Source of the DNA: a virus
Length of the DNA stretch: 64,000 bases
Strand: one strand, 5' to 3'
Virus record (IMG/VR): IMGVR_UViG_3300021091_000016
Shown here: piece by piece, positions 7,602 to 29,700 of the stretch
How the letters are laid out: each line of letters opens with the position of its first letter
Position numbering within the stretch: position 1 is the first letter of the stretch
Translations under genes and position numbers: made by a program
The notes under the pieces: model-generated
Database searches by the model: none
Seen by the model: the letters and a program-made list of their open reading frames with translations, nothing else
Told to the model about the DNA's origin: nothing

Positions 7602-8116
7602 TTCAATAACTGCCAGGTTTCTCCATCACCTTCGGATGGAATTGCATTGTAAAACATTCTATCTTCTCTTCTTGAAGTAATACCCATAGTAAAGCCAAAG
7701 CTTACAGGTACGTTAACATCCTCATTTTCATATTGATTATTTTCATATGGTGGCGAGAAATAAACCTTACCTGCCATAATAGAAAAGTCATCTAACGAAC
7801 TTGTTTCAATAGTAACTGTTCTACCTATAATATTATCATCAGAACCATAGTTTTGTCTAAATTGTTCATAGCTCATGCTTCTGATTTCAATAGGCAAAGT
7901 AGATTTTATTTTTTCAATTCCGCAAATAATAAAAAGCCCACCATTGAAATCTCTACCTGGTAAAAATTTAGATGATTTTTTAGTGGCGCAAACAATATCT
8001 ATTATTAATGCAGAAACGTAAATCTTATTATCCTTTACGTTAGATGACTTATAGATATTAAGATTATTTAAATTTTTGTTAAAGGAAGACCTTAGTCCTT
8101 TTATTTTCTCGCTCAT
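7598..8116 (-). CDS. Hypothetical baseplate protein (172 aa), in the spike/gpV position
   Basis: TAATG coupling to the hub gene; function inferred from synteny only. Confidence 0.45.
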   Translation of the reverse strand: MSEKIKGLRSSFNKNLNNLNIYKSSNVKDNKIYVSALIIDIVCATKKSSKFLPGRDFNGGLFIICGIEKIKSTLPIEIRSMSYEQFRQNYGSDDNIIGRTVTIETSSLDDFSIMAGKVYFSPPYENNQYENEDVNVPVSFGFTMGITSRREDRMFYNAIPSEGDGETWQLLK

Positions 8117-17100: not shown

Positions 17101-17193
17101 TGTCTGGATTCGTTTTGTGCCATCTTCCTTAATAAGAAAATGCTGAGGTAAAATCCAAATATCAAAAATATCTACTAATTTATAATCGGACAT
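8116..17193 (-). CDS. Giant baseplate hub protein (~3025 aa) with Peptidase_M15-type Zn peptidase and several hydrophobic segments
   Basis: Start moved to MSDYK (ATG 17193, GAGGG upstream). SQHYFGSAVD (15001-15030), GLGIYG and FIHFD (~14824-14838) fit the M15/LAS H-x6-D...H-x-D pattern. Hub-like motifs: ADTAVIRLQN, LRPG..QLRAGYSSNP, YRGEIIILGNPQINPYD, VTHIFSMDTGFITEIKP. Confidence 0.75.
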   Translation of the reverse strand: MSDYKLVDIFDIWILPQHFLIKEDGTKRIQTSLKEMYKVYGCMVFSQMSVSQFRKGFESENWLNNWWKTIDPIQEQVFNEKNIRTAYETLDAFFKRIDPNCIIIFSDQTINVVFQYRATGFIELVNEGYLHAINIYNVSNIIRKFNEKYPSCLKLNKESNFYELNLTSSGSALLSILYDFFPVHVKELLKDYFDKNQNEFNDKYKNNDNYGSLWNQTLIPNIFLKRPFVYYVDNDFFMDSYSSHTDLNPYNKDYLNVKEYYDELRYRIITDKPVSPSTNYFYLKSKYAKNFSYIPNDKTHYFDDGLEHDKINYKNVVFYNVWSDSTLTLRQSTPALENIEVATNTTLDTGLHYLTSKDLEALSNLPKYIADNKYFEWTHKEYVSNVFYKTLVLQIDNEFEDNKSEESKSIDKGINVTNYDIGANAFVSTAAGINNIVAQIPILSQEYPTNQFLSSSEPTYQFNFISKNLAQETVGLPLIPKAIETLRALTNKYGREYKFIPDGSFILIDSFVTRLFGSFKEEYINHIPLDQENYKVDIKKPIAIESTEHRTLESSPGATAYTLRFSESNTYDPELFKEVLTNKTNTEANEEFMKKALDLILSNCDLADVSKDYVFKKNAFESNPGDYLSFTSKYFTADDFLRGIKLKKPELIKKLQELDLIKIVDHNLKIMAQHLDNLWDLLLSFDDIKKGEGYPLLVKSFSGIKVKSGLDFSDSETRDTFSQHYFGSAVDIIVPGYNVFFIAELIRRYMLKQSKGYGLGIYGDVFGSGMAWVRDMGDRTAAYSGFIHFDLNLNLTSNSYDAAFTQYCSEINKSEEQVKTITKKSKSSLTPEEKDIVDAIRNLKLNNKITDTDDFTNLKYNTTPRLWSADKGGEYAIKEYYSGEGIDVWKDKVPDEDYTYFKDYTLYDYVYKPNNSEISIELYLKQKLDNNTEIENNDDNDDENQERSEETVKFKTEIVDYKVKLEPESARLDKDFNPNYSGGNILTYNSWKERLEQVFGEKSSDLIGTSVSDTKYKDLTDAQRKAFQASYKNRSLNNDTEVSIFTNTVGNIINADPGYFKDVKNNKQLKDALDDYFNANGLVVYYDRDAQNLTDTFEFNKDLPLSFYIADPSSVGSFSENATGNYNNREIINLIKMACNLKDLASVFLIEPEIYLENKDDVQKEYEMIQKELYGISPIPSFFNNLTFGVCGSLLPTAEDIIQAQALFTKLKTDYTSFEGTSRGFYLFYNFINKSHPNYESTLINKFLTNNNEGFVAKVKSLLGGVVAAVAIYFASIPILFGAILIAINTALDGENLMTNNVAKGSILDEELPEVSTNLFRLLENISRGTFVTSLNTSDDVAFGANVYAKLDRRALFNRIYVERENNQEPIYSFNQLVLDLEDSDNHQNLVNSVIRQFVEQNPVMQDYQELASTISVNNALKSLINFEFLNSNTGEKEKSLFVGKDIFDPFIAKDWILFLISFRHTTQFFGELDDEEFDDCYVYNLNQKAFTRKKEDSSYIPAIESPRDSYLIERNLGESVEIINEKTMVANVPRVYRYENAEKRKNYFQKLKEQNKVRLAYLKNLLVQIVESLKQYDFFANNLSGFGTENQIEFDFATENAYPDIDLPLDPANPLSNINISPGFFYVKNFYSQSVLEETKAQATNILQKSYNFMSKLETGVYSGDAADFKNQSQDSITKGVIVDMKDSNLTVSVGEFNNQLAILGENSNLSDLIPKIKFDSELSNTDLDYTDISLITIQEILNPLQNNPEEYLQLHVDSVKERAATLENSFGSRAGFINETSVDTLNFFRDFDDRNNTSDETNKLLGLSNDSNISVNVLQEIADVSGNKLLENQFDISKAYPTFKFYLIEEDSIDSDNIFVFDDFYSFNAVKDFTVYKSRKLAADTAVIRLQNISGTLDGTKFAVIRDVDYEINDRIIEKEQFGQVPSSEPIQSVVLRPGVCCQLRAGYSSNPKDLTILLSGRIADVAWSNNGDMCEVTVQSFAVELETRKYGASDIDNGLDEKQFHSTHKLLGWCLFRNELKHFGRYKKQRLFQRGESKDVVITKETHIGAGDPSTSASMFEFFMSNWGYFVAAEVALCFVNFGALVGAGKEVAKVAVKEVAKEAVESTAATAGAEVVEAVAKEAVEDAAKVSGTTVLNIFSRNVFRAFGFGKEVVQNIPNWLGLGKLIRFVSGSGLNINASTKLINAELAGIEKAIVDEGFVSSQVLSQTDLILKIANQNVVDAAAQTSRLSNVLAYLGSFIGWQTQIVTRGSTLASRLWSINPTSLNVALEQYVAKGFTGSIENQATRIAIRNLVLTEITNASTNLWATGLRKAFQAVSLGAMRAVKLGVILPVLTYSVGLVWDTVSSVLSYFYNLVMGTFNPYSEALVLSPQDDALYAPHPDRYIVGSSGLASVQSDEAIKRLKRALAIGYLFYDPSKSTSTNEDILLNRTLLMDKRLNAKRGENVFKIKNSTIWEIFHEMSLRHPGWVYGARQYGQSLEYRMFFGLPNQRYFGKPLGNLEIKRLNSIIEATSKEDEDKIISLVSKETRAKIDILLTEEGTKSKRVDIMKTLLLEEWTRITKDRFIPFRNYHLISSKYNLVANNISGSNNDVINEIAILYLENNSGSMPQYTQRVIRAHDNMTEDQVHAKAVKYDNCKGFNAALRYGTAELVNAAKEMYRGEIIILGNPQINPYDICILEDEYSEMFGPIEVEAVTHIFSMDTGFITEIKPNALVTANEGLTYPVLNSVAMYDIGRELSKKADYNFRSLGDDQKKTLVTSIVDKWLEDNVKFMTMPWEKDPAVELGFTGAIKLQTGEINPDFKQVLIQRTLQELEKGNIILQSDILNPNANLGGFLTTENISATLASLGLGLALAKNRLGATPAVLVGLLGLGSSQAPTILDSQLSTPGSFLVNKLLTGDMLISQVTDGNLIQVYPLFKNNRPLVYGGYQKISLNKSVKNKLGNIFFEISEAMTMFNAISKEYSSRENIIYNRPTFVIEQTGNIAEALLPFRLPAGTVTGYLGSYTRDQVVDAASTGGRL

Positions 17194-17197
17194 TTTA

Positions 17198-18382
17198 TTA
17201 CTTACCCTCATTTTGTTTAGCTAATGCTTCTAATATTCTTTTGTTATTTTCAAATATCTTTTTATCTCTATCTTGACCAGTTAATTTTTCAGTATCATAC
17301 ATTACCTCTTGTCGATATCTTTTTAATACATCTGCTGGAAGGTTTATATGCTCATACTCATTATAATAGAATTTAGTAGTTCTATCATATTGCAACATAG
17401 ACTCTATGATATATTTTTTTATATCATATAATATAAATGGTGAATGCAATCCAACTACTATTTTGTTAAAGCCAGAGATAATACCCTTATCTAAGAAGTC
17501 TTTCTTTAGTAAGCTAAGTGGCCCATCATCAGTAGCAGCTCCTCTAGTAATATTTATTCCAAAATTTTCTGATAAGGATTTGATTTGAAGCCAATTATAA
17601 TATCTTACATATGCTGCTGATTTATAAGGTAAGCTTTCTTGAATTCCCAAATCAGCATATTTTTTAAACTTTTTAAAAATAGATAAGTTTGAATCAACTT
17701 GAGTTTTTATTACTGGTGTTTTTTCTGGATCAGAATATTCGTACTCCAACAATAAAGGCTCGTAAGAAAGCTTATTATTAATTACCTTTGTAGCAAAAAC
17801 AGGAAATGTCAATGATGTATATCTATTATTTCCTTGAGATGTATACAGGGTTTCTAAATCTGGAATGTATTTTAAATCCAAGGAATATGGTATATAATTA
17901 AAAAGCTTTAAATCTAATTCCATTTCGAATGATGAATTTGCTGGTTGATAAGAGCTTATTCTTAAACCAGTTACAGTACAATGTAAATTTCTATTATCAT
18001 ATCCGCCAATAGATTCTTTAATATACCTGTTATCTATACATACAAAAGGATTATTTCTAACCTGTATTATTAAACGATGTAGCATTAAAATCATTTCAGA
18101 TGTAAATAAAAGCTTTAATTGAATTAATATTTGGCCGCGACCAGAGGCTAACTTAGTAGTAGTCTTTGTTCTTAAGGTTTTATATCCCCAATTAAAATTA
18201 TCCTTTTGAATATTGATTGATAAAGGAGCTATAGGTAAAAATATGTCATTGATTACAAAGTTACATTTTTCTTGCAATTTACCTAAACTATCTACAACAT
18301 TTTTATAATTAAAATCATATTCAGGATTTCCTTCTGTTATATCAATAAAATCTCTATCAACAATTTCTTTAGTGACGCGCAT
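17198..18382 (-). CDS. Putative baseplate/tube-initiator protein (394 aa)
   Basis: N-terminal INDIFLPIAPLSINI...LRT...GRGQILIQLKLLF looks like a tube-fold hub domain; lies just upstream of the hub gene. Confidence 0.45.
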   Translation of the reverse strand: MRVTKEIVDRDFIDITEGNPEYDFNYKNVVDSLGKLQEKCNFVINDIFLPIAPLSINIQKDNFNWGYKTLRTKTTTKLASGRGQILIQLKLLFTSEMILMLHRLIIQVRNNPFVCIDNRYIKESIGGYDNRNLHCTVTGLRISSYQPANSSFEMELDLKLFNYIPYSLDLKYIPDLETLYTSQGNNRYTSLTFPVFATKVINNKLSYEPLLLEYEYSDPEKTPVIKTQVDSNLSIFKKFKKYADLGIQESLPYKSAAYVRYYNWLQIKSLSENFGINITRGAATDDGPLSLLKKDFLDKGIISGFNKIVVGLHSPFILYDIKKYIIESMLQYDRTTKFYYNEYEHINLPADVLKRYRQEVMYDTEKLTGQDRDKKIFENNKRILEALAKQNEGK

Positions 18383-18385
18383 TAA

Positions 18386-20023
18386 TTATTCTCCCATAAG
18401 CTTGTCAATATAACCACCAGTAATAGGCATTCTGTTATCATTCATCATCATACTTGAAGTTCCTCCTGTTTGCAAAACCATATTAGAAATATAATTAGCT
18501 TCGTATTCAGACGAAGCCGTACCTTGAACTAAATAGCTTTGTTGTTTAATCATAGGTGTTTGTCCAGGAGTAATTACTCTGTTAACCATATCCTTGTAAA
18601 ATGGTCTTTGCATTGCTTCTGCGCTCATTAAAGTATCTCTATTACCAGTAGGTACTAATTGTTTATTTCTAATGCGCTCAGAAACTCTACTGTCTGTAAA
18701 TATCTCCTCAGGCATAAGCTCCTCAGTATCAGTATTTGAGCTTAAGAAATAAGATGCTCCTAACACAGCGGCAACACCTGCACTAAATCTTAAATTACTT
18801 ACACGAGCTAAATCCTCAGCTACTGCAGACATAACAGATGGTCTTTTTGCACCCATTAAATCTTCAAATATTGCTTGTTGTTCCTCAGAGCTAAAGCCCG
18901 CATTTGCAACTACAGATTCTAGTACGCTGGTATTTCTTACCAGCTTCATATAATTCTCTTGAGTTATTTTATCTGTTTTAGAGGATGATAATAGTTTTGC
19001 TAATATGTTATCAGACGAATATGTGTGAAGTCCTCTTTTACGTACCTGATTCACAATATTGTCTAAACCTGCAAATACATCCTCTAAACTAAATCTCATA
19101 CCTCCATTACTCATCAAATCTGCTTCATATTGTGCAGCTAATTCTGGAGGTAAATTGCTAACCTTTACGCTTTTAGCAATTAACTCCTCGGTAAACATAG
19201 TGTCTTTAAAGATTTGCTCTCTTAAGAAATCTTTAAATGCAGAGCTGTCACCTGTTCTGAATGCAGTATTCAAATGCTCTGTAAATAATTCACCAATATT
19301 AGTAGCTAATGGTAGTGATTTAGATTTAATAACAATTGATTCTTGTGCAGCAGAAATCAATGTTTGAGCTGCTAAGTCGGTTTTTCGAATAGCTTGTATA
19401 TCGGCGCCAGATTCCATAATAGAATAAGCCGCACCAACCGCTGCTGTTTTAACAGCAACGTCAACAGAACCAACACTACCCTTAAGAATACGTTCCTTTG
19501 TAGATTCAGAGGTTAATAAGGCCTCGTAGCTCATATCCTCAACACCCATGCGTTTTGCTACAGTTTTCATTGCATCCTTTGCTATTTCCATATTAATAAC
19601 AAACATTGCACCAGTCTTTTGCATTTCCTTAACGTTTTTACTTATTTGACTTCTAAAGGCTGCAGCACTTTTCTCATTGTTCATGATCGCTTGATAAATA
19701 TCACCATCAAAGTCACCCACCCCAGCTCTAGACAAGTCAGTACGTACTTTAACCTTATAATTACCAAATGTACTGCCTTGCTTCTGAGATTCAAATTCTA
19801 CTTCTGTTTCAAATTCAGGAATCAATAACTGACCTTGACCTAAACCAACTGCAGCAGAATAATTACTCTTATATACATGTAGTAATTCATCTAGTATTTC
19901 TGATGGTTGCAAAAACTTAGCCTCCTCAGGGTTTATTCCAGAGTTGATGGCTTTTTGTTTTTCTAACTCTAATTCCTTTAAGGCATTTATGTGTTCTTGC
20001 TTATAACCCTCATAGGTCTCCAT
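18386..20023 (-). CDS. RNA polymerase beta'-like catalytic part (545 aa as called); probably the C-terminal part of a readthrough or split gene
   Basis: GQGQLLIP...DLSRAGVGDFDGDIY (DFDGD at 19700-19714) matches beta' GKAIQLHP...YNADFDGD. No SD before ATG 20023, and the frame stays open upstream to the TGA at 20195-20197. Confidence 0.75.
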   Translation of the reverse strand: METYEGYKQEHINALKELELEKQKAINSGINPEEAKFLQPSEILDELLHVYKSNYSAAVGLGQGQLLIPEFETEVEFESQKQGSTFGNYKVKVRTDLSRAGVGDFDGDIYQAIMNNEKSAAAFRSQISKNVKEMQKTGAMFVINMEIAKDAMKTVAKRMGVEDMSYEALLTSESTKERILKGSVGSVDVAVKTAAVGAAYSIMESGADIQAIRKTDLAAQTLISAAQESIVIKSKSLPLATNIGELFTEHLNTAFRTGDSSAFKDFLREQIFKDTMFTEELIAKSVKVSNLPPELAAQYEADLMSNGGMRFSLEDVFAGLDNIVNQVRKRGLHTYSSDNILAKLLSSSKTDKITQENYMKLVRNTSVLESVVANAGFSSEEQQAIFEDLMGAKRPSVMSAVAEDLARVSNLRFSAGVAAVLGASYFLSSNTDTEELMPEEIFTDSRVSERIRNKQLVPTGNRDTLMSAEAMQRPFYKDMVNRVITPGQTPMIKQQSYLVQGTASSEYEANYISNMVLQTGGTSSMMMNDNRMPITGGYIDKLMGE

Positions 20024-20197
20024 CTTTTGATTTAAGTGCGCTTTTAAAGCACTGTCATCATTTAAATGATCAATACTATTAATTGAATCTAAATCATCTA
20101 AAACATATTGATTTGTTTTATAGGTTATAGGCTTGTCATCTTTATCAAGTACCTCTACTGCCTGTGATTTAGCTTGATCGTAATAAGTAAGAGGTCA
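20024..20197 (-). other. In-frame TGA plus 57 sense codons joining two ORFs (candidate recoding site)
   Basis: GAA ATT GAA TGA CCT CTT ACT TAT...AAT CAA AAG ATG GAG. The 171 nt translate without a stop to PLTYYDQAKSQAVEVLDKDDKPITYKTNQYVLDDLDSINSIDHLNDDSALKAHLNQK. Confidence 0.9.
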
Positions 20198-23100
20198 TTC
20201 AATTTCTTGCATCGTAGGTACTCTTCCCAATGTCATTCTTGGCGAATTTACCTTATAGGCTTCAGAACCATCAGCAGGAGTAACATCTAAAGGTTGCTCA
20301 GATAAAGTTCTATTAGTTAAATCTTGGACCTTTTGATTGTGTTCTTGTACTCTTTGTTTGCTCTCTGTAATTTTTTGTTTAGTCTTTTCAATTGATTTAT
20401 CTTTTCTATCTTTAGCAGCTTCTAAGCGCATCTTTTTTACTTCATTTAATCTTTTCTTTATTTCACTTACAGAAGTATATGGCGCGTCTCCTTGAGTTTC
20501 TGGTAAATCAATGGTTTTATATTTTACCTTACCTTCAGCATTAGTACTCTCTACAATCTTATTACCTTCAGCATCATATTCATATTGCTTGAATCTAAAG
20601 TTCTTAATTTTTTCTGCTCGGCGTTCCTCAAGCTTTTGTTTTTGTTTATTTAAATCATCTCTAAAAATAGAATATGCTTCTGGACTTAACTCTTTTTTTA
20701 ATTGATTTAAATTAGGCAATCCTTCTGCTGTTAACTTAAGAGTTGGATCTTTAGCTTGAAATCTTTCATAAACACTTCTTACTTCTTCAAGTGCATTTAT
20801 TTTGTTTTGTAAATCTCCAGGTATTATTTGAGTATCAAATATTTCATACATTCCTTTTTTTGCAAGATAGCCTAATGTATTACTTAATATCTTTGATGCT
20901 TGATCAGCCTCTTTTTTATCAGTTAAAGACAATATAACCTTTGCTCTATCTGTGTCTGGAACGCTTTTTTCGTTTACTCCATTAGTTAACTTCCAAACCT
21001 CTGTCTCATCGGCTACCATATGAGTTAAAGATTTTTTTAATATTTCATTTGCTTGTTCTATAAAAGCTTTTTTTACAGCTTTACGTTCCTCATTAGTTGT
21101 TGCTTTACTTAAATCTGAAATAGTTTTGCTAATTAAAGCTTGTGTTTCTGAATTTTTTTGAAATGAATCATTTAACGTTTCATTTAGTTCTACAATTGTA
21201 GAGTTAAATGCAGTCTCATTTCCTAACTTTAATCTAGTATCTCTTTTAGTTTGATACTCGCTTACCATGTCTAGCTGTTCATCGGTTAAGGGCAACTCTT
21301 TATCGAAATAATGTACTTGCTCTTGTTCAGCACGTTTAGCTAAAATTATATTTAAAATATTTTGATTATAGTCTATTGACTCTAAATTACTACTAATGTG
21401 CTTTTGAAGTCTGTTTAAACTCTTATCTTTTCTTTCAATCATCTTATGTATTGGATTGATAGACCTATATTTTTTTACTTCTTTCTCCGTAAAAAATCCT
21501 TCCTTTTCCACATCTTCGATAAACTCTGTTACCATATAAGCTTCTCTAAAAAGACTATCCTTTCTATCAGTAGGCATAGTATTATAAATCGCGCGATATT
21601 CTTCTAAAAAAGCTTCTCTTTGTTCTACTGCATCAAATCTTAAATTTAAAAATTTTGTATCTTCTGCTTTGCCATGTATATCTTCCTTAATTCCAAATTC
21701 TTTAACTAAATCTTCAAATTCTTTTATTGGTTCATAGCTTACATATTTTTTAACTACTGTTTGACCATCATTCGTTTTTTCAAAATAAGGGATAGTGTGT
21801 TTAACTTGAAAAAGATGTTCTGTATTTAATCTTAGAGTTTTATCCTCTAAGTCTATCATTTCTTTTAGGTATTGATTTTTATTTTGACTCGCTCTTATCA
21901 TCGATTCAAATGTATTTTTTGCATCCTTAAAACTCAATCTAGTGTTATATTCAAAAGCATCTGCGTACCTTACATCTTCTAATGCAACTTGATTCTTTTC
22001 AAAATGCTGTCTAGTTAATTTATCTACAAACCCTTCAGTAGTTTTAAATTTTTTAGTTGCGGGGTCATAAGATATTCTTTGCCTTCTTTCATGTCTAAGC
22101 TTAGCAGCCTTTAATCTTTCTATTTCTCTAGCAAAGCTATCCTTTCTGTATTCGGGATTTATAGACATATCCTCTATGTATTTTATACCTGCTGAATGTT
22201 TAGGTAAATATTTGTCTTTTGTAAGCGCAGCCTTTTCTGCTTTCAAATCAGCTAATCTTTGCTGTCTTAACTGTAGATTTAAATTTAATTTTGATTGCTT
22301 CTGTAATTGCAAATTTAAATATTCAAATTGTTTTTTCACTCCTCCAATTCTTGTTTGTATATTCTTTCCAGTATTAACATTTGTACCTGTCTTTATATTA
22401 TCCATTATTGCTTCTATTGCTTGGATATCAGCTTGTTTCTTTGCAATTTTATCTGCAATAGTTGTAGTAACTGCAATTCCTGCACCAGCAGATTTTAAAC
22501 CTCCTAATCTTGATAATTGGAATAGCTTGTTTAAATTACTGAAATTTAAAAAGTTACTATTTGGATTAGCAGCTTCATTTTCTAAATGTGCTACTATACC
22601 TTTATCAACGTTCGAAGCAAAAGCGCCCCCACTACCTATAAAGCTACGTAAAGCTGCCTGTAGCTGTTGACCATATTTAGAATACTCAACTACATTATTT
22701 AAACTTGCTGATTTATTTAAATTATCAGTATCGATTCTATATAAATCGATACCAAAGGATATATGTCCAAAACCTAATTGAGGATTACGAAAGCTAATAC
22801 CAGAAACACCCTTTGGAGAAAAAGCCTTTTCATCATAAATTATATTTCCGGCCGAATCTTTAAAGAATTGACCTTCTTCCATACCGAACAAAAATCTTTT
22901 CATAGTATCGAATTTTTCATAGCCTTCCTCTACAGGAGCCTCCTTCATTTGACTATACGCATACATAAAGCCTTGAATATCCATAAACTCGGCATATCCT
23001 TTAGATTCAACCATAGCTTTGTTCAATTTGCCTATAATCTTTTCTTGTAATGCAGGTTCATTTGCAAGTATTGTAACCTGGTCTTGGCCAGTAACACCAA

Positions 23101-26100
23101 GTCTTAAACCTTTACCTTCTAAGGTAGCACTACCAGTAATTCTACCTGACAAAATCTGTCTAGTTAAACCACCTGTTATTTCTTGCAACTCCTTTATATA
23201 GTAAATAGATTTTTTAATTAAATTCTTTTGTTCCGTATCTACATCAGCAACACTTGCTTCACGTATGTTAGCAAAAATATCATTAATACGACGATATAGG
23301 GAGGATTCCATTTGTAAATCCTCCCCTTCCTTTCTAAGCTCTACACCAGAAATAGAATCTAGAGCATCTGATAAAGGTACTACGATTTGACTTTTTCCCT
23401 CGCCTATTTGTTCTATAAAGCTTTGATATGCAGCAACATTTAATTGTTCATTACCTTCTACACCTCTAGTAAATAAATCCTTAATATCAAAAACCATTGC
23501 TATAGCATCACCGGTTTGTTGCTTTAAATTTCTTAAATAAATAGCTAATGTATCTGCTGATTCTTGACCTACGTTAACATCTAAAAATTGTTTAACTAAG
23601 TTTTTATCTGCCTTAAAAAACTTACCTTGAGAAATATAATCCTCAATAAGCATATTCATTGCTTCTGGTTTTTGATTTGGATTCATAGAATAAGATGATA
23701 ATAATAACGGCGAAATACCTAGAACCTTCTCTCCAATGCCAACCTGTCTAGTAAATAAATCAGACATTACATTTGCAGCATCCTCAGCAGACATATTAAA
23801 GCTTGACATCAAATTAGCAGATAAAAAGTTAGCAAAACGTGGTTCGACTCTAGCTAGCTTTGATTTATTTTGAGAGGACTGAGTACCTGCGTATGCACTA
23901 AATGCACCAACAAACATACCTTTATTTGCAGCTAATAGTGCTTCTTGTTGTTGCGCACTACTCATTCTACTATTAGCTAAAAGCTCTTGAAACAAAGGAG
24001 TAGTCTTGCCACCCATCTTAGTTCCATAATCCTCTAAAGCTTGCGTAGGTACCATAACCGTACCAATTAACTCTGGAGTTAATTGAGCTAATTGACCAGC
24101 TCCTGGAAGTTGCGTATTCATTTTATCCTGTAGGAACCCAAATACTGCGGTTCCGAATTGTCTAAAATATTTCTTAGTGTGCTCTGCAACCTTAGTATCT
24201 AGCTTAGCAGGCTCTATTCCTGCATCCTTCATACTTCTTGCAATATAATTATCAAACTCATCTGCATCGAAACCTAAATGTAAAACACTTCCACGCATCA
24301 AAGAAGCTAGAAACAATGGCGCTTTGTTTACAACGTCCATACCTGCAACCATGCTTGTTTCAAAATTAATATTAAAGCCCTTTAAAGCTACATTCTTTAT
24401 AAAATTCTCACCTTCTGTTGCACTTCCCATAGCTTGAGACAAAACCTTAGTAAAACCTTCCTCCTTGAGCAAAGACTCTTCTCCATAAAAAACGCCCTTA
24501 ATTGGTTCTGAAAATATCTTACTTTGCTCTTTGGAAATGATAGAGCCTGTCAAATAATAACGACCTTCTTTTTCATTCATTGCTACATTATGTCTTTGTA
24601 ATCGCAATCCAAACATGCCTTTTTGCTTTGAAATTTTAACAGGCTCATTGTTATTAAAACCTAAAACTAAATTACCTTCCTTATCTCCATAAGTCTTATA
24701 GAATTTCTCTAACTCTTCGCCAAAAAGCTCAACCACATCACCTTTATTTAATTTATCGAATTGCTCTGATTGATAAATTGATAGATTAGGCATATTGGTT
24801 AATACCTGAAAGCTTTTCTTTATAGGTGCTTCAACAATACTGCTACCGCCTGTATATTGCATAGCATCTGCTAAACCAAATAACTGACCCTTTTTATTCT
24901 TAGCATTAAAATTAATAATAACACTAGTGTTTGCTCCTACCATTGGTAAGTCTTTAAATGCTGGGTCAATATTTAAGAGCTGTCCACCAGTAGTAGCTAG
25001 CATTGGAATATTTCCTCTACCTATTTTTTTACTTCTTAAATAATTATCTAACTCTGCCGCTGACTGAAATTGAGGTGCATCAGGTCCTAAATATCCTAGC
25101 AAAGCTTCTGGCTTTGCGAATTGCTGTGCTGGACGTGCAGAACCTGGAAGTATAGCCTGGTCTTTTACACCACCAATAGCTCTTACTAAACCTACAGGAG
25201 TAACATCGCTAGGATTCAAACCTACAATAGCCATTCTTTGCTCAATAGTTTTACCAGCTATTTCATGTCTTTTTATACCTGCTTGACCTTGTGCAGGACC
25301 AAATAAACCAGACTCTAAACCTACCATCTTATTTAAATCTAAAGGAAATGCTTCACCTGCAGTCTTCTTTGTATGAAAAAAATATGCAGTATTTGCAATC
25401 ATATCCATGCCATGTCTAGCTTGAATACCAGTATATCCTAAATTCTTTTTCAAATTAGGACTAACATCCTGAGTAAGCCCAGTTAATGTTTCCATAAAAA
25501 CATTTCTCTCTGCTTGATTCATTTGAAATAAATCCTCTACAGAATGCATTTTAAATAAATCAATTGCAAAATCCTCAAAGCTAGATTTTGTACTTAAATC
25601 AGTTAATTTCTTTCTAACTGCTCGAGCTCTTTGACTTAGATTACTTTCAGGTATAGCTTTTAAGCTTTCAAAATCATCTACATTAAAATAATATTTATGC
25701 GCAAGCTTTGCATTTCCATAATCTGCACTCAATCTAACCATCTTACCATTCTCGGTATCTGCTCCTAATAAGGGAATTATAATTGGAGATGCAGATGCTC
25801 CACGTTTTTTAGATGATATTTTTGCATAAAAACCAGATTTTCCATCTCCTTCATCAATCACATCAAAAGTAATGTTAAATTTTTGATCTACAGTTGAATT
25901 ATTACCTTGTCTTAAATGTTGTTCTATTTTTTTAAAACGATTAATTACTGTATTTTTAGTTCGTCCATTATCATTGTAATTTTTATACAAATCGTCATTT
26001 GATAAATCACTGTAATTTATATTCCTTCTATTAACAGAATTAACTTGAGTGCTAACCTGTTCGAACATAGAAAATGGATTTGCTAAATTTGTTTTTCCTG

Positions 26101-26749
26101 TTCTAGAATTTGTAGCTAATAAAGATGCAATTTCTTTATTCTTTTGATGTAAATTTAAAAATCTAGCTTCTAAGGATTGGTCTCCAGAAATACTCTCTAC
26201 AAAATTAGATATTTCAGAACTCATACTATTTCCCGCTCGGCTATCAATTTCTATAGCCGAGCGTATTCTCTCAATTAAAGTAGCTCTTTCGTTTTCACCT
26301 ATATTTAATGAAGGGTCATTTATCATATCTAACAAAGTAGATAAATGAGATATACGCTCGCTATCTCTACTTTGCATAATTCTATTAAAATTATCTATTG
26401 TTTCTTGTTTTGAAGCGCCAAATAATTCTGAACGATTTTTATTTAAAGATTGTGTATCTAAAGATTTTTTTATTTCTGATTCTTCTAAAGCCTTATTCCT
26501 TATTTGCTTACCAATGGTATTCATTGGATGCATTTTTTCTTGCGCCGGATTATTAATAAAATTAGTTAGATTAGATACACCTGGCATATTACCAGAAAGA
26601 TTTGGATTTTGAGATTTAAAAGCATAGTATCCAGAAGCACCAGTGATAGCTAGACCAGCCATAGTACTAATAGCATTCCAAGCACTTCTCTTATAAGATT
26701 CTTTTTCTCGTTCACTTTTGGTAATAGTGTCTATTGTAGGCTTTATCAT
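20195..26749 (-). CDS. Giant protein (2184 aa): beta-like and N-terminal beta'-like parts of a putative single-chain RNA polymerase plus a long charged helical region
   Basis: SKIFSEPIKGV (K744/K751; cf. beta GDK1065..K1073GV), RQILSGRITGS (R1197; cf. beta' RQNLLGKRVDYS), FRNPQL (R1321; cf. beta' NR425APTL). N-terminal hydrophobic helix AISTMAGLAITGASGYYAF. Confidence 0.6.
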   Translation of the reverse strand: MIKPTIDTITKSEREKESYKRSAWNAISTMAGLAITGASGYYAFKSQNPNLSGNMPGVSNLTNFINNPAQEKMHPMNTIGKQIRNKALEESEIKKSLDTQSLNKNRSELFGASKQETIDNFNRIMQSRDSERISHLSTLLDMINDPSLNIGENERATLIERIRSAIEIDSRAGNSMSSEISNFVESISGDQSLEARFLNLHQKNKEIASLLATNSRTGKTNLANPFSMFEQVSTQVNSVNRRNINYSDLSNDDLYKNYNDNGRTKNTVINRFKKIEQHLRQGNNSTVDQKFNITFDVIDEGDGKSGFYAKISSKKRGASASPIIIPLLGADTENGKMVRLSADYGNAKLAHKYYFNVDDFESLKAIPESNLSQRARAVRKKLTDLSTKSSFEDFAIDLFKMHSVEDLFQMNQAERNVFMETLTGLTQDVSPNLKKNLGYTGIQARHGMDMIANTAYFFHTKKTAGEAFPLDLNKMVGLESGLFGPAQGQAGIKRHEIAGKTIEQRMAIVGLNPSDVTPVGLVRAIGGVKDQAILPGSARPAQQFAKPEALLGYLGPDAPQFQSAAELDNYLRSKKIGRGNIPMLATTGGQLLNIDPAFKDLPMVGANTSVIINFNAKNKKGQLFGLADAMQYTGGSSIVEAPIKKSFQVLTNMPNLSIYQSEQFDKLNKGDVVELFGEELEKFYKTYGDKEGNLVLGFNNNEPVKISKQKGMFGLRLQRHNVAMNEKEGRYYLTGSIISKEQSKIFSEPIKGVFYGEESLLKEEGFTKVLSQAMGSATEGENFIKNVALKGFNINFETSMVAGMDVVNKAPLFLASLMRGSVLHLGFDADEFDNYIARSMKDAGIEPAKLDTKVAEHTKKYFRQFGTAVFGFLQDKMNTQLPGAGQLAQLTPELIGTVMVPTQALEDYGTKMGGKTTPLFQELLANSRMSSAQQQEALLAANKGMFVGAFSAYAGTQSSQNKSKLARVEPRFANFLSANLMSSFNMSAEDAANVMSDLFTRQVGIGEKVLGISPLLLSSYSMNPNQKPEAMNMLIEDYISQGKFFKADKNLVKQFLDVNVGQESADTLAIYLRNLKQQTGDAIAMVFDIKDLFTRGVEGNEQLNVAAYQSFIEQIGEGKSQIVVPLSDALDSISGVELRKEGEDLQMESSLYRRINDIFANIREASVADVDTEQKNLIKKSIYYIKELQEITGGLTRQILSGRITGSATLEGKGLRLGVTGQDQVTILANEPALQEKIIGKLNKAMVESKGYAEFMDIQGFMYAYSQMKEAPVEEGYEKFDTMKRFLFGMEEGQFFKDSAGNIIYDEKAFSPKGVSGISFRNPQLGFGHISFGIDLYRIDTDNLNKSASLNNVVEYSKYGQQLQAALRSFIGSGGAFASNVDKGIVAHLENEAANPNSNFLNFSNLNKLFQLSRLGGLKSAGAGIAVTTTIADKIAKKQADIQAIEAIMDNIKTGTNVNTGKNIQTRIGGVKKQFEYLNLQLQKQSKLNLNLQLRQQRLADLKAEKAALTKDKYLPKHSAGIKYIEDMSINPEYRKDSFAREIERLKAAKLRHERRQRISYDPATKKFKTTEGFVDKLTRQHFEKNQVALEDVRYADAFEYNTRLSFKDAKNTFESMIRASQNKNQYLKEMIDLEDKTLRLNTEHLFQVKHTIPYFEKTNDGQTVVKKYVSYEPIKEFEDLVKEFGIKEDIHGKAEDTKFLNLRFDAVEQREAFLEEYRAIYNTMPTDRKDSLFREAYMVTEFIEDVEKEGFFTEKEVKKYRSINPIHKMIERKDKSLNRLQKHISSNLESIDYNQNILNIILAKRAEQEQVHYFDKELPLTDEQLDMVSEYQTKRDTRLKLGNETAFNSTIVELNETLNDSFQKNSETQALISKTISDLSKATTNEERKAVKKAFIEQANEILKKSLTHMVADETEVWKLTNGVNEKSVPDTDRAKVILSLTDKKEADQASKILSNTLGYLAKKGMYEIFDTQIIPGDLQNKINALEEVRSVYERFQAKDPTLKLTAEGLPNLNQLKKELSPEAYSIFRDDLNKQKQKLEERRAEKIKNFRFKQYEYDAEGNKIVESTNAEGKVKYKTIDLPETQGDAPYTSVSEIKKRLNEVKKMRLEAAKDRKDKSIEKTKQKITESKQRVQEHNQKVQDLTNRTLSEQPLDVTPADGSEAYKVNSPRMTLGRVPTMQEIE

Positions 26750-26751: not shown

Positions 26752-29700
26752 TTAATATCCGTTAGTATAATCTTGCATTAATGCTTCTATTTCTTGTTGC
26801 CGAGTGTCATTATATACTATCTTAGCATAATTTCTATAATCCGAGGTTGTATTTACATTTAAATTTAATCCAATGGCTCTTACCATTGGATTAGCATAAC
26901 GCATACTAGATGTAAAACCCCCTCTATCCATAATAGGATTTTCATACATAAACAAATGAGATTCAGCTAATGCATTATGTCTTCTCACACGTTTAGCTTG
27001 AGATTCCCATAAATCGTAATCTCTCATATCTGAACCTAAACTAGATACATAGTTAACCTTGATATCGTTAATGTCTACATCTTTATTCCAACCCACCCAA
27101 TCCGGCTCTGGAATTGAGACATCGCTCATATCTAAGTTATTATATTGCTCTTGTAAATGCGCCTCATCATAGATTGGCTTTTCACCAATGTATCCACTAG
27201 GGTCACCACCATTATCCATAACCGACCATAAACCTTGATACAAATGCACTTGATCCTCTGGAATCATTTCTAATATTCTATCTCTTTGAGCACCTTGAGC
27301 ATTTGCAAATTCATTAAAGAATTTCTTTTCTTCATCAGGTAAAGCCATGTAAATAGATAATGGGTCTCCTGTAGGATTTACACCATATCTAGTCTTAGCT
27401 GCTTGAGCTAACATTTTCTTTCTATCAAATGGGGATTGTGCATTATCTGCTAAAGCCATAAATTTATAAAAATTTAATCTATCAAATTGACTAGATACCT
27501 GTTCTCTATCTTGTACAAATCCAGGTTTACCTTGATAACCCATCATGTTAAGCGCCGAATAAAATGAAGGCCTTATCCAGTCTCTGTATGGTTCATCCCA
27601 GAAAGCCATAGATGTACTGTATAAGCGCTCATGCTCATATTGGTCTATAGAGCTTCTTTCTCCACCTAATAGCTTCTGAGTCGGTCTAAAGCCAAAGGGT
27701 ATTAAATGCTCTACTGGTTGCGCTACAGTTCTTATACCTTCTTTAAACATATCATAAGCAGGTCTTGTTATGGCGGATGCTAAAGGTATCTTTATTTGAT
27801 TATGATGTCCTCTAAATTCCTCCATCGAAAGTACCTTACCCAAATCCTCAGAAACCTGATCCATCATTTCATTTTCGTAATCAGAGGTAATCCCAGCAGC
27901 TCTCCTTTCATATAATTGATTTCTTAGCTTAACTACCTCACGTGAGGTAGGGTCTACATCTGATAATATTTTAAATTTAAATATATCTGGATAATCCTCA
28001 GGATTTATTCCCTTTAATTCACTATAAGCTGCTTCATATCCAGCGCCAGGAAGTCTAGCATAACCTGATTGTATCTTAGTATATGGGTCGCCTCTTTTAA
28101 ACTTTTCAGGCATCCAGGATGGCATAGTATTATTAATAGGATTATATTGCTGAATCTCTTTCTTAGGTCTTGGGAATACACGTCTTAAGGCTTCTGACAT
28201 AAACATCATACCACCTAGGTCTTTATCCCAGAATTGATGCACAGAATGATCTATTTGATTTGCACTAGACATAACAGTGTAATCGGTCGCATAGACCTCT
28301 CTACCAGTAGAAGCCTTCTGAATCATATTCTTTACCCAACCAGTAAGACCTTCTATTTCTCTGATTTGATATTGCACCTTGCCTAATGTCATTTGAGCAG
28401 AATAAGGACTAATCGGCAATCCAGGTGGTGCTGTTTCTCCAGCTTCTCTTGTAGTACCAACCTCTGGGGGATAATAATATTCAAGGTCTCCAGTAGAATC
28501 GTTTATACGCATAAACTCATCTGCATGCATTAATTTTGGAGGTTTAATTAAACGACCAATTGTACCAGATAAAATTCCTCCAAGAATAGGTACATTTTCA
28601 AATGCAGTTCCAGTAATAGGGTAAGGTCTGTCATAAAAATGCTTTTCCTCTAAATGGTATGTAAAGTTTTTAAGTATAAATTTGGTTATCGGATTATATA
28701 ATTCATCTTCATCACCCCAAATAGATTTCTCCTCAGCTCTAGTCATTAATAAATGATATGCGTGCGGTCTAGTATAATTAACAGTTGTGCCTTCATAAGG
28801 AGTACCACCACCTTCCCAAAAACGTCCCTTTCTAATCTCAACAGGCTTTTTCCCTGAATAAGTATCTCTTAGCTCAGATGGATTTTCCATAGAGCCTAAC
28901 AGTCCACCGAGCAATAAAGAATGTAAAGCAAAACCTGCAGCAAATACAGTACCAGCTCTTCTAAGCCAAGGACTGTATCCTATTTCTCTAGCTGCTCTAT
29001 CAAAAGCATCCCCACTCATACTTGCGCCATGAAATGCATGATATGATTCAGCTGCAAACATTTCTATACGTCTAAATAAAGGAGCAAATGGATTTTGAGA
29101 ATTCTTGTATTTATTTTGAATATCTTCAATTCGATTAATTAAAGAATAATTTAAAAAATTATGCGTCTTTTCTTTATCGTACATTCTAGTACGCACTACT
29201 GTATCTAAGCTATTTTCAAAATCTAAATTTGAGATTCTATTTTCAAAATACGAAGCGTCTTCTCCGAGTTCCTGATTTAAAAATGTAAATAATCTATTCA
29301 ATACTCTTTGATGGTCTTTGTTAGTCAAGTCAATATCTGAAGGCTTTGCAAATTTGGATTGCAAAGCCTCTGAATATTTTTTGAACCTATCAGTTTTAAA
29401 GATTGTTTCGTTATATTGAATTATTCGTTTCTGTATATCCTGTGATTTTTTTGCTAGCTCTAAATTATTTAAAACATCAATTGTACCTTGAGCATTTAAA
29501 TGATTTATTTCAGTTAGGTCTATCCCCTTTGCCTTTAAAACATTAAAAAATAAATGGCTGTTTTTGTTACTTGATTGCTCTGCTAATATTTTACCTGTTA
29601 ACTCATCGTCACTCATAGCATAAAAATTTAAATTATCTAAATCATCTAAGCTAGAGCGAGATATATCATAAAATAAACCTGTTTCTTTCTTATAAACCAC

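What the first reader, a model, noticed from the sequence alone, without database searches (positions are those of the whole stretch)
18386..26749. Cryptic single-chain two-barrel RNA polymerase in the tail (tape-measure) locus
Seen: reading the two same-frame ORFs as one 2787-aa chain gives, in collinear order, K744-x6-K751-GV, R1197QILSGRITGS, FR1321NPQL, GQGQLLIP and G-D2346FDGD. Established: these match the E. coli beta K1065/K1073 motif and the beta' motifs RQNLLGKRVDYS, NR425APTL, GKAIQLHP and NAD460FDGD, which build the two double-psi beta-barrels. Single-chain virion RNAPs are known in crAss-like phi14:2 (gp66) and Thermus phage P23-45 (gp96, fused to the tape measure). Inference: this phage packages and injects its own highly diverged RNAP, encoded between the tape-measure-position gene and the baseplate. 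Standard annotation would probably leave both ORFs hypothetical. DFDGD is the strongest match; the beta-like lysine motif is the weakest.
Basis: partly seen in the sequence, partly recalled or inferred. Interest (0 to 1): 0.92.

Follow-up and report, generated by a model that had tools for sequence, protein, structure and literature searches.

The report
Giant hidden RNA polymerase in phage tail genes
A 2,787-codon gene in the tail-gene block of an uncultured contractile-tailed phage belongs to a large, so far unannotated family of single-chain RNA-polymerase-like enzymes built like cellular RNA polymerase, which the phage probably carries in its particle to start transcription on infection; in this genome one stop codon interrupts it.

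Summary
Minus-strand ORFs 20195-26749 and 18386-20023 share a frame and are separated by one TGA; all five motifs are at the stated residues. Four relatives encode one chain of 2,819-3,225 aa, and a 94%-identical relative has TCA (Ser) where the window has TGA.

An exhaustive profile search found 138 cluster representatives, 95 of them 1,600 aa or longer. The two lysines, RxP and DxDxD are conserved in 91-96 of 96 sequences. R1197 is not (33 of 96).

No sequence method links the family to any RNA polymerase (Pfam, PHROGs, PDB, 50,697 phage genomes). AlphaFold models do:
- Window residues 480-1350: pLDDT 81.6.
- Short member's full core: pLDDT 88.
- The first half matches beta/Rpb2 subunits (Z up to 10.8), the second half beta'/Rpb1 (Z 7.6), the whole core RDR2 and QDE-1 (Z 8.9, 8.6).

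A control-tested complex prediction joins the window's DFDGD piece to the RNPQL strands across a ~950-aa insertion (0.64 against 0.00).

The gene sits where phage 0305phi8-36 has its virion "tape measure" ORF146. The polymerase fold is well supported. Packaging, injection and DNA-dependent transcription are inferred. I rate it a new variant of a known kind. The scan had also noted the TGA and the insertion on this same window.

The parts
18386..26749 (-). The whole gene: 2,787 codons plus the final stop, read as one chain through the TGA
   Evidence: Single chains of 2,819-3,225 aa in relatives P0003, P0005, P0006 and P0007.
25190..26749 (-). N-terminal region, about residues 1-520. Conserved within the family, no fold assigned
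   Evidence: Alignments A2 and A3. It was not modelled, apart from residues 480-520, which had low confidence.
23858..25177 (-). Beta-like module, about residues 525-964, holding the first double-psi beta-barrel
   Evidence: AlphaFold model m5e2f93b633bd. Model residues 9-485 align to vaccinia Rpo132 at Z 10.8 over 268 residues. The nine best of 48,161 chains are all RNA polymerase second-largest subunits.
24491..24520 (-). Lysine motif KIFSEPIKGV (K744, K751) in the beta-like barrel
   Evidence: K744 in 94 of 96, K751 in 91 of 96. It lies in beta strands of the model.
22715..23857 (-). Beta'-like N-terminal part, about residues 965-1345: helical clamp-like region and the first strands of the second barrel
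   Evidence: model 547-862 matches Rpb1 at Z 5.2, and 526-722 matches the archaeal clamp domain at Z 5.5. One search gives the equivalent region of P0046.
23129..23161 (-). Motif RQILSGRITGS. The conserved core is G-[KR]-x-x-G-S
   Evidence: G1202 88, K/R1203 81, G1206 91, but R1197 only 33 of 96.
22775..22792 (-). Motif FRNPQL (R1321, P1323)
   Evidence: R in 94 of 96, P in 96 of 96. These residues form the predicted interface with the C-terminal piece.
19865..22714 (-). Insertion of about 950 residues (1346-2295), rich in Lys and Glu, lying between the RNPQL strands and the DFDGD strand of the second barrel
   Evidence: Short family members have only about 125 residues here. This stretch does not align between the window lineage and more distant relatives. 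Composition: K 11.7%, E 9.7%, G 3.4%.
20195..20197 (-). In-frame TGA that splits the gene in this genome
   Evidence: The 94%-identical relative L004 has TCA (Ser) at this codon. The 57 codons after it have dN 0.17 and dS 1.66.
19808..19846 (-). Motif GLGQGQLLIPEFE (family consensus G-x-G-G-G...P)
   Evidence: G2304 89, G2306 92, P2311 73 of 96. Residues 2304-2313 touch N-part residues 1210-1257 in the predicted complex.
19700..19714 (-). Motif DFDGD, the presumed metal-binding aspartates D2346, D2348 and D2350
   Evidence: 96, 96 and 95 of 96. In the P0046 model the equivalent residues lie in the region that matches isolated double-psi beta-barrel domains.
18389..19864 (-). C-terminal module, residues 2296-2787: the rest of the second barrel, long helices, and a conserved extreme C-terminal tail ending ...NDNRxPITxxYxDxLxGE
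   Evidence: Profile search with A1 gave 138 representatives. Beta'-like matches extend through the long helices of the P0046 model. The tail is conserved in A3 and A6.
26752..31779 (-). Upstream neighbour, 1,675 aa, homologous to virion structural proteins ME3_35 and 0305phi8-36 ORF145
   Evidence: BLASTP E 7e-48 and 1e-21. ORF145 was found in virions by mass spectrometry according to its GenBank note. It has two hydrophobic segments.
8116..17211 (-). Downstream giant protein, 3,031 aa, a baseplate-hub homologue with cell-wall-degrading domains
   Evidence: PHROG endolysin families at E 1e-32. BLASTP to ME3_37 and 0305phi8-36 ORF147.
17198..18382 (-). Conserved 394-aa neighbour of unknown function
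   Evidence: Present as 394-404 aa directly after the polymerase gene in L002, L003 and L004, absent in L005. No family match.

Best explanation
The two ORFs are one gene for a very diverged single-chain two-barrel nucleotide polymerase, most likely a DNA-dependent RNA polymerase.

Layout of the chain:
- Residues ~525-964 form a beta-like module. Its double-psi beta-barrel carries K744, K751 and K809.
- Residues ~965-1345 start a beta'-like module, with G-[KR]-x-x-G-S and R1321-x-P1323.
- A lineage-specific charged insertion of about 950 residues follows.
- The chain then returns to finish the second barrel with the G-x-G...P strand and D2346/D2348/D2350, which would hold the catalytic Mg2+.
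- Long helices that match the beta' chain follow, and then a conserved C-terminal tail.

What is shown here: gene unity in relatives, conservation of the motifs, the predicted fold, and predicted docking of the two halves.

What is inferred:
- The protein is made late with the tail proteins, because it lies inside the sheath / tube / hub gene block, in the slot of a virion protein of 0305phi8-36.
- It travels in the particle and enters the cell with or ahead of the DNA.
- It transcribes the first phage genes independently of the host enzyme. These may include a second, unrelated polymerase-like gene seen elsewhere in a relative's genome.

In this genome a TGA (a Ser codon in a close relative) interrupts the chain inside the insertion. 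The enzyme would then be made as two pieces that assemble, at a low level by read-through, or not at all.
For: One gene:
- Relatives of 2,819, 3,221, 3,225 and 2,893 aa are single chains.
- The window's TGA corresponds to TCA in the closest relative.
- The 57 codons after the TGA evolve as coding sequence, dN/dS about 0.10.

Family:
- 138 cluster representatives matched the C-terminal profile; 95 of them are 1,600 aa or longer.
- The catalytic-type residues are conserved in 91-96 of 96 sequences and invariant in the 60-sequence alignment A3.

Fold of the window's own residues 480-1350 (pLDDT 81.6, pTM 0.76):
- Nearly all of the ~49 listed Foldseek matches are RNA polymerase second-largest subunits, though all at E > 0.001.
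- VIA-align against 48,161 chains ranks nine such subunits first: 6rfl_B Z 10.8, rmsd 4.6, 268 aligned. QDE-1 follows at Z 7.0, and unrelated rows sit at about Z 6.

Fold of the complete core of short member P0046 (pLDDT 88.0, pTM 0.87):
- Residues 1-408 match beta-like chains (8qma_A Z 9.7).
- Residues 467-1120 match beta'/Rpb1 chains (9mu7_A Z 7.6, 364 aligned; 6edt_D Z 6.7, 386 aligned).
- The whole core matches single-chain two-barrel polymerases: RDR2 Z 8.9, QDE-1 Z 8.6, P74-26 gp62 Z 7.3, P23-45 gp96 Z 5.5.
- Residues 620-848 match isolated double-psi beta-barrel domains.
- 200 chains reach Z >= 8 in the second look, and all 50 rows listed are beta or Rpb2 subunits.
- The nearest ESM Atlas cluster carries Pfam RNA_pol_Rpb2_6 plus RNA_pol_Rpb1_2.

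Joining of the window's halves: complex prediction scored 0.64 against a best control of 0.00. That mark was reached by 58 of 80 solved complexes and 2 of 110 mismatched pairs; the counts hold only roughly because my own alignments were used. The runs agree in at least 48% of contacts and the partner's pLDDT is at least 62. The contacts pair residues 1204-1219, 1250-1257 and 1315-1341 with 2304-2313 and 2350-2362.

Virion role:
- The gene lies between a sheath / tube block and baseplate genes.
- Its flanking genes are homologous to ME3_35 / ORF145 and to ME3_37 / ORF147.
- The slot holds a mass-spectrometry-confirmed virion protein in 0305phi8-36.
- The same neighbourhood is seen in four other loci.
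- Virion-delivered single-chain two-barrel RNA polymerases are established for phi14:2 gp66 and P23-45 gp96 (PMC10770324).
Against: - No sequence method links the family to any polymerase: Pfam and PHROGs, a PDB search with the single proteins and with a 60-sequence profile, and comparison with gp66. The assignment rests on predicted structures and short motifs.
- Structural Z scores of 7-11 on large models are moderate. Only one Foldseek match passed E 0.001.
- The window's second barrel was never modelled as one chain. Its closure rests on a complex prediction whose calibration holds only roughly here.
- No member has virion proteomics, transcription data or an assay.
- 0305phi8-36 ORF146, the only mass-spectrometry-confirmed protein in this slot, has no DxDxD and no detectable homology to the family.
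- The best whole-chain structural matches (RDR2, QDE-1) are enzymes with RNA-dependent activity, so template preference is open.
- In this genome the gene carries a real stop. ATG 20023 has no Shine-Dalgarno-like motif, whereas 21 of 33 genes in the window have one.
Confidence: 0.7

Rival explanations
1. It is a real two-barrel polymerase but is not packaged. It is made late with the tail genes and acts inside the infected cell, for example as a late or replication-linked transcriptase.
For: No virion data exist for any member. The only mass-spectrometry-confirmed protein in this slot, 0305phi8-36 ORF146, is not detectably related. A relative's genome carries a second polymerase-like gene, so the division of labour between the two is open.
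Against: In five loci the gene sits between virion tail proteins and the baseplate hub, in one tightly packed operon. An enzyme first made with the tail proteins is too late for early genes unless it is carried into the next cell. The extreme C-terminal tail is conserved across the family independently of the catalytic core, which suits an assembly or docking signal.
Confidence: 0.12
2. It has the two-barrel fold but is not a DNA-dependent RNA polymerase. It might be an RNA-dependent polymerase, a primer-making enzyme, or a DNA polymerase of the PolD kind.
For: The best whole-chain structural matches are plant RDR2 (Z 8.9) and QDE-1 (Z 8.6). The second-nearest Atlas cluster is named RdRP. The superfamily also holds PolD-type DNA polymerases (PMC7824862).
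Against: The halves match DNA-dependent enzymes at least as well: beta Z 9.7-10.8 and Rpb1 Z 7.6. QDE-1 itself also copies DNA (PMC9508822 abstract). The phage has a double-stranded DNA genome with terminase and portal genes. The known phage single-chain relatives are DNA-dependent.
Confidence: 0.1
3. In this particular genome the gene is dead. The TGA is a recent inactivating mutation, or an assembly or consensus error, and says nothing about biology.
For: A single C-to-G difference from the closest relative creates the stop. TGA is a normal stop in this phage. ATG 20023 lacks a Shine-Dalgarno-like motif. The window comes from a 152-kb metagenomic contig.
Against: The downstream 545 codons are intact. 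Against the relative they show dN 0.03 and dS 0.87, so any inactivation is very recent. The two pieces are predicted to bind each other, and other phages use split beta and beta' subunits (AR9 and PhiKZ chains). An error in the assembly would leave the gene intact in reality.
Confidence: 0.15
4. It is a structural tail or ejection protein that descends from a polymerase and no longer catalyses anything.
For: It occupies the slot of a presumed tape measure protein. It carries a huge helical insertion inside the catalytic barrel.
Against: The three aspartates, the lysines and RxP are kept in 91-96 of 96 representatives whose overall identity to the window protein is only 15-25% (alignments A4 and A5). 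That pattern is expected only if catalysis is under selection.
Confidence: 0.04

Closest known systems
Thermus phage P23-45 gp96, a tape-measure-fused virion RNA polymerase (PDB 8H2M/8H2N; PMC10770324)
   Same: Both are single chains with two double-psi beta-barrels and a DFDGD motif. Both are encoded in the tail module at the tape-measure position. Neither has sequence similarity to cellular polymerases. The two are structurally alignable: Z 5.2-5.5 over 185-330 residues.
   Different: In gp96 the polymerase is the N-terminal ~1,200 residues of a 5,002-aa protein that also has membrane and metallopeptidase domains, in a non-contractile-tailed phage. Here the polymerase spans almost the whole protein and the phage has a sheath. 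No strong hydrophobic segment was found and no peptidase-family match. A ~950-aa insertion sits inside the second barrel.
crAss-like phage phi14:2 gp66 virion RNA polymerase (PDB 6VR4)
   Same: Both are giant (2,180 aa) single-chain two-barrel enzymes encoded with structural genes. gp66 is packaged and injected according to the GenBank annotation and the bioRxiv abstract.
   Different: The profile of this family gave no HMM hit and only a 0.2% probability hhalign hit against gp66. The metal motif of gp66 is DFDID. The window's terminase groups with Moorella, ME3 and 0305phi8-36 phages, not with Crassvirales. 6VR4 did not appear among the 50 rows listed by either VIA-align search.
QDE-1 and plant RDR2, the eukaryotic RNA-silencing polymerases (PDB 7Y7P, 7W84)
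   Same: They are the best whole-chain structural matches to the family core: Z 8.6 over 359 residues and Z 8.9 over 357 residues, spanning both barrels.
   Different: They are cellular enzymes of about 1,000-1,400 aa that act on RNA or single-stranded DNA. Sequence identity over the aligned residues is only 9-10%, and no Pfam family, RdRP (PF05183) included, matched the window's protein at E <= 0.1. Their biology is entirely different.
Multisubunit RNA polymerase beta and beta' (Rpb2 and Rpb1), including the split phage versions of AR9 and PhiKZ
   Same: The order is beta-like then beta'-like. Lysines sit in the first barrel; GKxxGS, RxP and DxDGD sit in the second. The top structural matches for each half are these subunits: Z 9.7-10.8 and Z 7.6.
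   Different: Here both halves are in one chain. There are no other subunits and no Pfam-level similarity. Most lineage-specific domains of the cellular enzymes are absent.
Acinetobacter phage vB_AbaM_ME3 gene ME3_36 (hypothetical protein, 1,603 aa)
   Same: It occupies the same slot between homologues of the window's flanking genes. It has KFFSVGSK at 632 and GGDHDQD at 1217, collinear with K648 and D1272 of P0046. BFVD lists uncharacterised ME3 proteins among the best structural matches, at E 1.8e-5 and 2.3e-5.
   Different: The family profile does not hit it significantly. That the BFVD entry A0A172Q021 is ME3_36 is my inference from its length (two pieces of about 800 aa). It would be the only cultured phage carrying a candidate member.

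Membership tests
Two-barrel (double-psi beta-barrel) polymerase superfamily | Two double-psi beta-barrel domains, the beta-like one before the beta'-like one | tested here: met
   Family core model: residues 1-408 match beta chains (Z 9.7), 467-1120 match beta'/Rpb1 (Z 7.6), and 620-848 match isolated DPBB domains (Z 5.3-6.2). The window's own N-part matches beta chains at Z 10.8. The window's second barrel is closed only in a complex prediction (0.64 against a control of 0.00).
Two-barrel (double-psi beta-barrel) polymerase superfamily | DxDxD metal-binding motif in the beta'-like barrel | tested here: met
   DFDGD at 2346-2350. The three Asp are conserved in 96, 96 and 95 of 96 sequences.
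Two-barrel (double-psi beta-barrel) polymerase superfamily | Conserved basic residues (two lysines) in the beta-like barrel | tested here: met
   K744 in 94 of 96 and K751 in 91 of 96 plus 3 Arg. They lie in beta strands of the region aligned to beta and Rpb2 barrels. The spacing is one residue shorter than in E. coli.
Two-barrel (double-psi beta-barrel) polymerase superfamily | Bridge helix and trigger-loop-like helices after the metal motif | tested here: inconclusive
   Long helices at 859-893 and 907-941 follow the DxDGD in the P0046 model, and the beta' alignments run to residue ~1120. No residue-level assignment was possible.
Two-barrel (double-psi beta-barrel) polymerase superfamily | Template-dependent nucleotide polymerisation | not testable with these tools
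   This needs an enzyme assay.
Virion-packaged (injected) phage RNA polymerases | Protein present in purified particles | not testable with these tools
   Only position speaks for it: the gene is inside the tail operon, in the slot of 0305phi8-36 ORF146, a virion protein by mass spectrometry but not a detectable homologue.
Virion-packaged (injected) phage RNA polymerases | Early transcription independent of the host polymerase | not testable with these tools
   No cultured member has been studied.
crAss-like gp66 RNA polymerase family | Detectable sequence homology to gp66, in a Crassvirales genome | tested here: not met
   hmmsearch gave no hit and hhalign a 0.2% probability. The terminase relatives are not Crassvirales. 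tblastn against 50,697 phage records, which include phi14:2, found nothing.
Tape-measure-fused RNA polymerase (P23-45 gp96 type) | Polymerase fused to a tape measure body with membrane and peptidase domains | tested here: not met
   No hydrophobic segment reached the threshold and there was no peptidase-family match. The hydrophobic segments lie in both neighbouring giant proteins, and the wall-degrading domains in the downstream one. Whether the insertion acts as a ruler is open.

The most novel reading that the evidence does not exclude
The polymerase may itself be the tail-lumen (tape-measure-like) protein of a contractile-tailed phage. On this reading, the 125 to ~1,430-residue variable helical insertion inside the catalytic barrel is the extended, ruler-like part. 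The enzyme would be held unfolded and inactive in the tail, and could close its active site only after ejection into the cell. Injection and the switch-on of transcription would then be one event. A weaker variant concerns only this genome: the TGA inside the insertion might be leaky and set the ratio of truncated to catalytic protein.
Probability: 0.15. Interest if true: 0.9.

Novelty: new variant of a known kind. Interest (0 to 1): 0.78.

Why it matters
Phage-borne polymerases that enter the cell with the DNA are known from three settings:
- N4-like phages, which carry a T7-type enzyme
- PhiKZ-like jumbo phages, which carry multisubunit enzymes
- two isolated cases of single-chain two-barrel enzymes, crAss-like gp66 and Thermus P23-45 gp96

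This finding adds a large and diverse family: 138 clusters at 50% identity. No library names it, and it sits in the tail module of contractile-tailed phages related to 0305phi8-36 and ME3.

If it is confirmed, three things follow:
- Host-independent early transcription would be much more common among uncultured phages than annotation suggests.
- A long-puzzling giant "hypothetical" tail gene would get a function.
- The short ~1,700-aa members would offer a compact, very divergent example of the ancestral RNA polymerase core for structural and evolutionary work.

Acinetobacter phage ME3 would make the question testable in culture, if ME3_36 proves to be a member.

The insertion of up to ~1,400 residues inside a catalytic barrel is unusual in itself.

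Tried and rejected
Sequence searches that found no link to a known family:
- phmmer of both ORFs against PDB
- a 60-sequence profile against PDB, which gave only designed helical proteins at E > 0.003
- Pfam and PHROGs
- megablast and tblastn of the window's ORFs and of two family members against 50,697 phage genomes
- the family profile against phi14:2 gp66, ME3_35/36/37 and 0305phi8-36 ORF145/146/147

Searches for more relatives that found none:
- IMG/VR viral contigs with the C-terminal protein
- one genome per prokaryote species with alignment A1, so no prophage copy was seen.

Ideas rejected:
- A changed genetic code as the reason for the TGA. TGA ends 10 other ORFs.
- A crAss-like phage. 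The terminase relatives say otherwise.
- Natural two-gene versions. The short C-terminal "proteins" in the search list are contig-end fragments, or, for P0049, a frameshifted continuation of an upstream frame. They give no evidence of a natural split.

Things that could not be done:
- No whole genome is held for the window.
- Pfam T7-type RNA polymerase (PF00940) and RdRP (PF05183) were not found in the relative's assembly. The controls show these searches have little power.

Weak hints not counted as evidence:
- 6VR4 (gp66) did not appear in the listed rows of any fold search. That does not show that the folds differ.
- The C-terminal tail of 0305phi8-36 ORF146 looks faintly like the family's tail (I-x-D-D-R ... 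YIDR), but no test supports it.

Full report
**1. What is in the sequence**

The minus strand carries ORFs 20195-26749 (2,184 aa) and 18386-20023 (545 aa). Translating 26749 down to 18386 in one frame gives 2,787 codons plus the final stop. The only internal stop is TGA at 20195-20197.

The window is an almost gap-free minus-strand operon. Ten of its 34 complete large ORFs end in TGA, several in ATGA overlaps. TGA is therefore a true stop here, and a changed code does not explain the fused frame.

**2. One gene or two**

A word-indexed search with residues 560-1360 found single-chain relatives of 2,819 aa (94% identical), 3,221, 3,225 and 2,893 aa. They align from end to end with the fused reading.

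- At the window's TGA the closest relative has TCA, serine. That is a one-base difference.
- Between these two phages, the 57 codons between the TGA and the next ATG have dN 0.17 and dS 1.66. The downstream ORF has dN 0.03 and dS 0.87. Both stretches have evolved as coding sequence.
- ATG 20023 has no Shine-Dalgarno-like motif, while 21 of 33 genes in the window have one.

The ancestral and usual state is one chain. In this genome the stop is either recent, an assembly error, or bypassed. I could not check reads.

Short "C-terminal only" proteins in the search output are contig-end fragments, or in one case a frameshifted continuation. They are not natural two-gene versions.

**3. The family**

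An exhaustive HMMER search of 1.84 billion cluster representatives with the C-terminal profile returned 138 proteins at E <= 0.001. Of these, 72 had E <= 1e-10. Most are the C-termini of proteins of 1,650-3,265 aa.

In an alignment of 96 sequences of 1,600 aa or more (the window's fused reading plus 95 database proteins), the counts are:

| Residue | Conserved in |
|---|---|
| K744 | 94 |
| K751 | 91 (plus 3 Arg) |
| K809 | 92 |
| G1202 | 88 |
| K/R1203 | 81 |
| G1206 | 91 |
| R1321 | 94 |
| P1323 | 96 |
| R1338 | 90 |
| D2346 | 96 |
| D2348 | 96 |
| D2350 | 95 |
| R1197 | 33 |

Overall identity of these proteins to the window protein is only 15-25%, so these residues are under strong selection.

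Short members have about 125 residues between RxP and DxDGD. The window has about 1,025 and P0005 about 1,430. The extra stretch is rich in Lys and Glu and poor in Gly, and it does not align between lineages. It is a lineage-specific insertion inside the second barrel.

**4. No sequence link to anything known**

The following searches found no link to any known family:
- Pfam and PHROGs
- PDB with single sequences and with a 60-sequence profile
- tblastn against 50,697 GenBank phage genomes with the two window ORFs and two family members
- HMM and HH comparison with phi14:2 gp66, whose metal motif is DFDID

Searches of IMG/VR and of one genome per prokaryote species gave no further relatives.

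**5. Fold**

*Window residues 480-1350*, folded with a 40-row alignment, gave pLDDT 81.6 and pTM 0.76.
- Foldseek found nothing at E <= 0.001. Nearly all of the ~49 rows it listed (E 0.004-0.06) are second-largest subunits of RNA polymerases.
- VIA-align against 48,161 representative chains put nine such subunits first. These include vaccinia Rpo132 (Z 10.8, rmsd 4.6, 268 aligned) and the split beta-like subunits of phages AR9 and PhiKZ.
- QDE-1 followed at Z 7.0. Unrelated helical proteins sit at Z 6 and below.

*The complete core of the short member P0046* (residues 440-1560, 46-row alignment) gave pLDDT 88.0 and pTM 0.87.
- Residues 1-408 match beta-like chains (Z 9.7).
- Residues 467-1120 match Rpb1, A190, archaeal A' and bacterial beta' (Z 6.7-7.6, 271-386 aligned).
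- The whole core matches single-chain two-barrel enzymes: RDR2 Z 8.9, QDE-1 Z 8.6, P74-26 gp62 Z 7.3, P23-45 gp96 Z 5.5.
- Residues 620-848, which hold GKxxGS, RxP and DxDGD, match isolated double-psi beta-barrel domains.
- The second look at Foldseek's list gave 200 chains at Z >= 8, and every one of the 50 rows listed is a beta or Rpb2 chain. The aligned ranges cover the part of E. coli beta that holds K1065/K1073.
- The nearest ESM Atlas cluster carries RNA_pol_Rpb2_6 and RNA_pol_Rpb1_2 in all members.

The Z values are moderate for models of this size. The uniformity of the matches, and their split into a beta half and a beta' half in the right order, is what convinces me.

**6. Does the window's own DFDGD piece complete the barrel?**

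I could not fold the chain with the insertion removed. Instead I asked for a complex of residues 690-1350 with residues 2285-2620.
- The score was 0.64, and the best of three controls was 0.00.
- That mark was reached by 58 of 80 solved complexes and 2 of 110 mismatched pairs. The counts hold only roughly, because my own alignments were used.
- The runs agree in at least 48% of contacts, and the partner's pLDDT is at least 62.
- The most confident contacts pair residues 1204-1219, 1250-1257 and 1315-1341 with 2304-2313 and 2350-2362. The first set includes the strands around GS-ATLEGKG and ISFRNPQL. The second set is the GQGQLLIPEF strand and the strand just after DFDGD.

This is what a barrel closed across the insertion should look like. 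No similar solved complex is detectable by sequence, so the pass is unlikely to come from memory of a structure. It remains a model, not a measurement.

**7. Genomic setting**

The window encodes these genes, in operon order:
- terminase, portal and major head protein
- tail sheath (35837-38359)
- tube-like proteins
- a 1,675-aa protein
- this gene
- a 394-aa protein
- a 3,031-aa protein with endolysin-type domains
- baseplate wedge genes

The terminase's nearest cultured relatives are Moorella phage MTATph1, Acinetobacter phage ME3 and Bacillus phage 0305phi8-36.

The 1,675-aa protein is homologous to ME3_35 and to ORF145 of 0305phi8-36. The 3,031-aa protein is homologous to the hub proteins ME3_37 and ORF147. 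The gene therefore sits exactly where ME3 has the 1,603-aa hypothetical ME3_36. It is also where 0305phi8-36 has ORF146, annotated "hypothetical tape measure protein" and found in virions by mass spectrometry.

- ORF146 has no DxDxD and no detectable homology to the family.
- ME3_36 has KFFSVGSK at 632 and GGDHDQD at 1217, collinear with the family's motifs.
- BFVD lists uncharacterised ME3 proteins, and a "minor tail protein" of a gut phage assembly, among the best structural matches.

Four other loci show the same neighbourhood. One has a Peptidase_M23 giant protein and a sheath-initiator gene just downstream.

**8. How it most likely works**

Shown here: one gene, a conserved catalytic-type residue set, and a two-barrel fold.

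Inferred, by analogy with the two characterised single-chain virion enzymes: the protein is made with the tail, carried in the particle, delivered on infection, and transcribes the first phage genes without the host enzyme.

Another first-stage note reports a second, YonO/QDE-1-like polymerase gene just beyond this window. In the relative's 158-kb contig I found an 1,859-aa ORF with NDGAG and GDNDGD, on the strand opposite to the giant gene. It has no Pfam or PDB match and I did not fold it. If it is real, the pair would parallel the virion and non-virion enzymes of P23-45.

**9. Rivals**

- Not packaged.
- A different template or product, since RDR2 and QDE-1 are the best whole-chain matches.
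- Dead in this genome.
- A catalytically dead structural relic, which is least likely given the conservation of the catalytic residues.

**10. Novelty**

Full-text searches found no description of this family or of a polymerase in ME3. A jumbo-phage survey reports only a YonO-like enzyme (ABS83659.1) in 0305phi8-36. By its accession number that is a different gene from ORF146.

The kind of thing, a single-chain two-barrel polymerase in a phage structural module, is known. What is new is the family itself, its home in contractile-tailed phages at the tape-measure slot, and the huge insertion inside the catalytic barrel.

The scan's first stage had also noted the TGA and the insertion on this same window.

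Noticed in passing
L012 4387-9966 (minus strand; contig 1 of the relative's assembly, 42386-47965): The 158-kb relative contig encodes an 1,859-aa protein with NDGAG at 568 and VGDNDGD at 882. It matches a first-stage note of an 1,843-aa YonO/QDE-1-like polymerase just beyond this window's end. It had no Pfam or PDB hit and no similarity to the giant tail-module family. It was not folded.
   Followed up: partly
window 8116-17211 (minus): A 3,031-aa hub-like protein. It has endolysin-type domains (PHROG E 1e-32), about five hydrophobic regions (seven overlapping scan windows), and homology to ME3_37 and to 0305phi8-36 ORF147. In another family locus the equivalent protein carries Peptidase_M23.
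   Followed up: partly
window 17198-18382 (minus): A 394-aa gene directly follows the polymerase gene in three of four relatives (394-404 aa) and is missing in L005. It has no family match. It may be an accessory or assembly partner of the polymerase.
   Followed up: no
window 33478-35817 (minus): Three consecutive genes (241, 379 and 144 aa) all hit PHROG 9206, which is labelled 'major head protein'. They lie right after the sheath gene, where 0305phi8-36 has its tail tube and a tube paralogue, so the PHROG label looks wrong for them.
   Followed up: no
whole window: None of the 34 complete large ORFs ends in TAG (24 end in TAA, 10 in TGA). All are intact under the standard code, so there is no sign of recoding. 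It may simply reflect the 30-35% G+C content.
   Followed up: no
L007 33172-37983 (Acinetobacter phage ME3, gene ME3_36): This hypothetical 1,603-aa protein of a cultured phage has the lysine motif and a DHDQD motif collinear with the family, in the same gene slot. It would be the handle for experiments.
   Followed up: partly
L013 1-290: In a 1,966-bp TARA contig, the family gene changes reading frame about 10 codons before the GGG motif. This is a frameshift in a low-coverage assembly, or a real one. It produced a misleading 482-aa 'C-terminal only' protein (P0049).
   Followed up: partly
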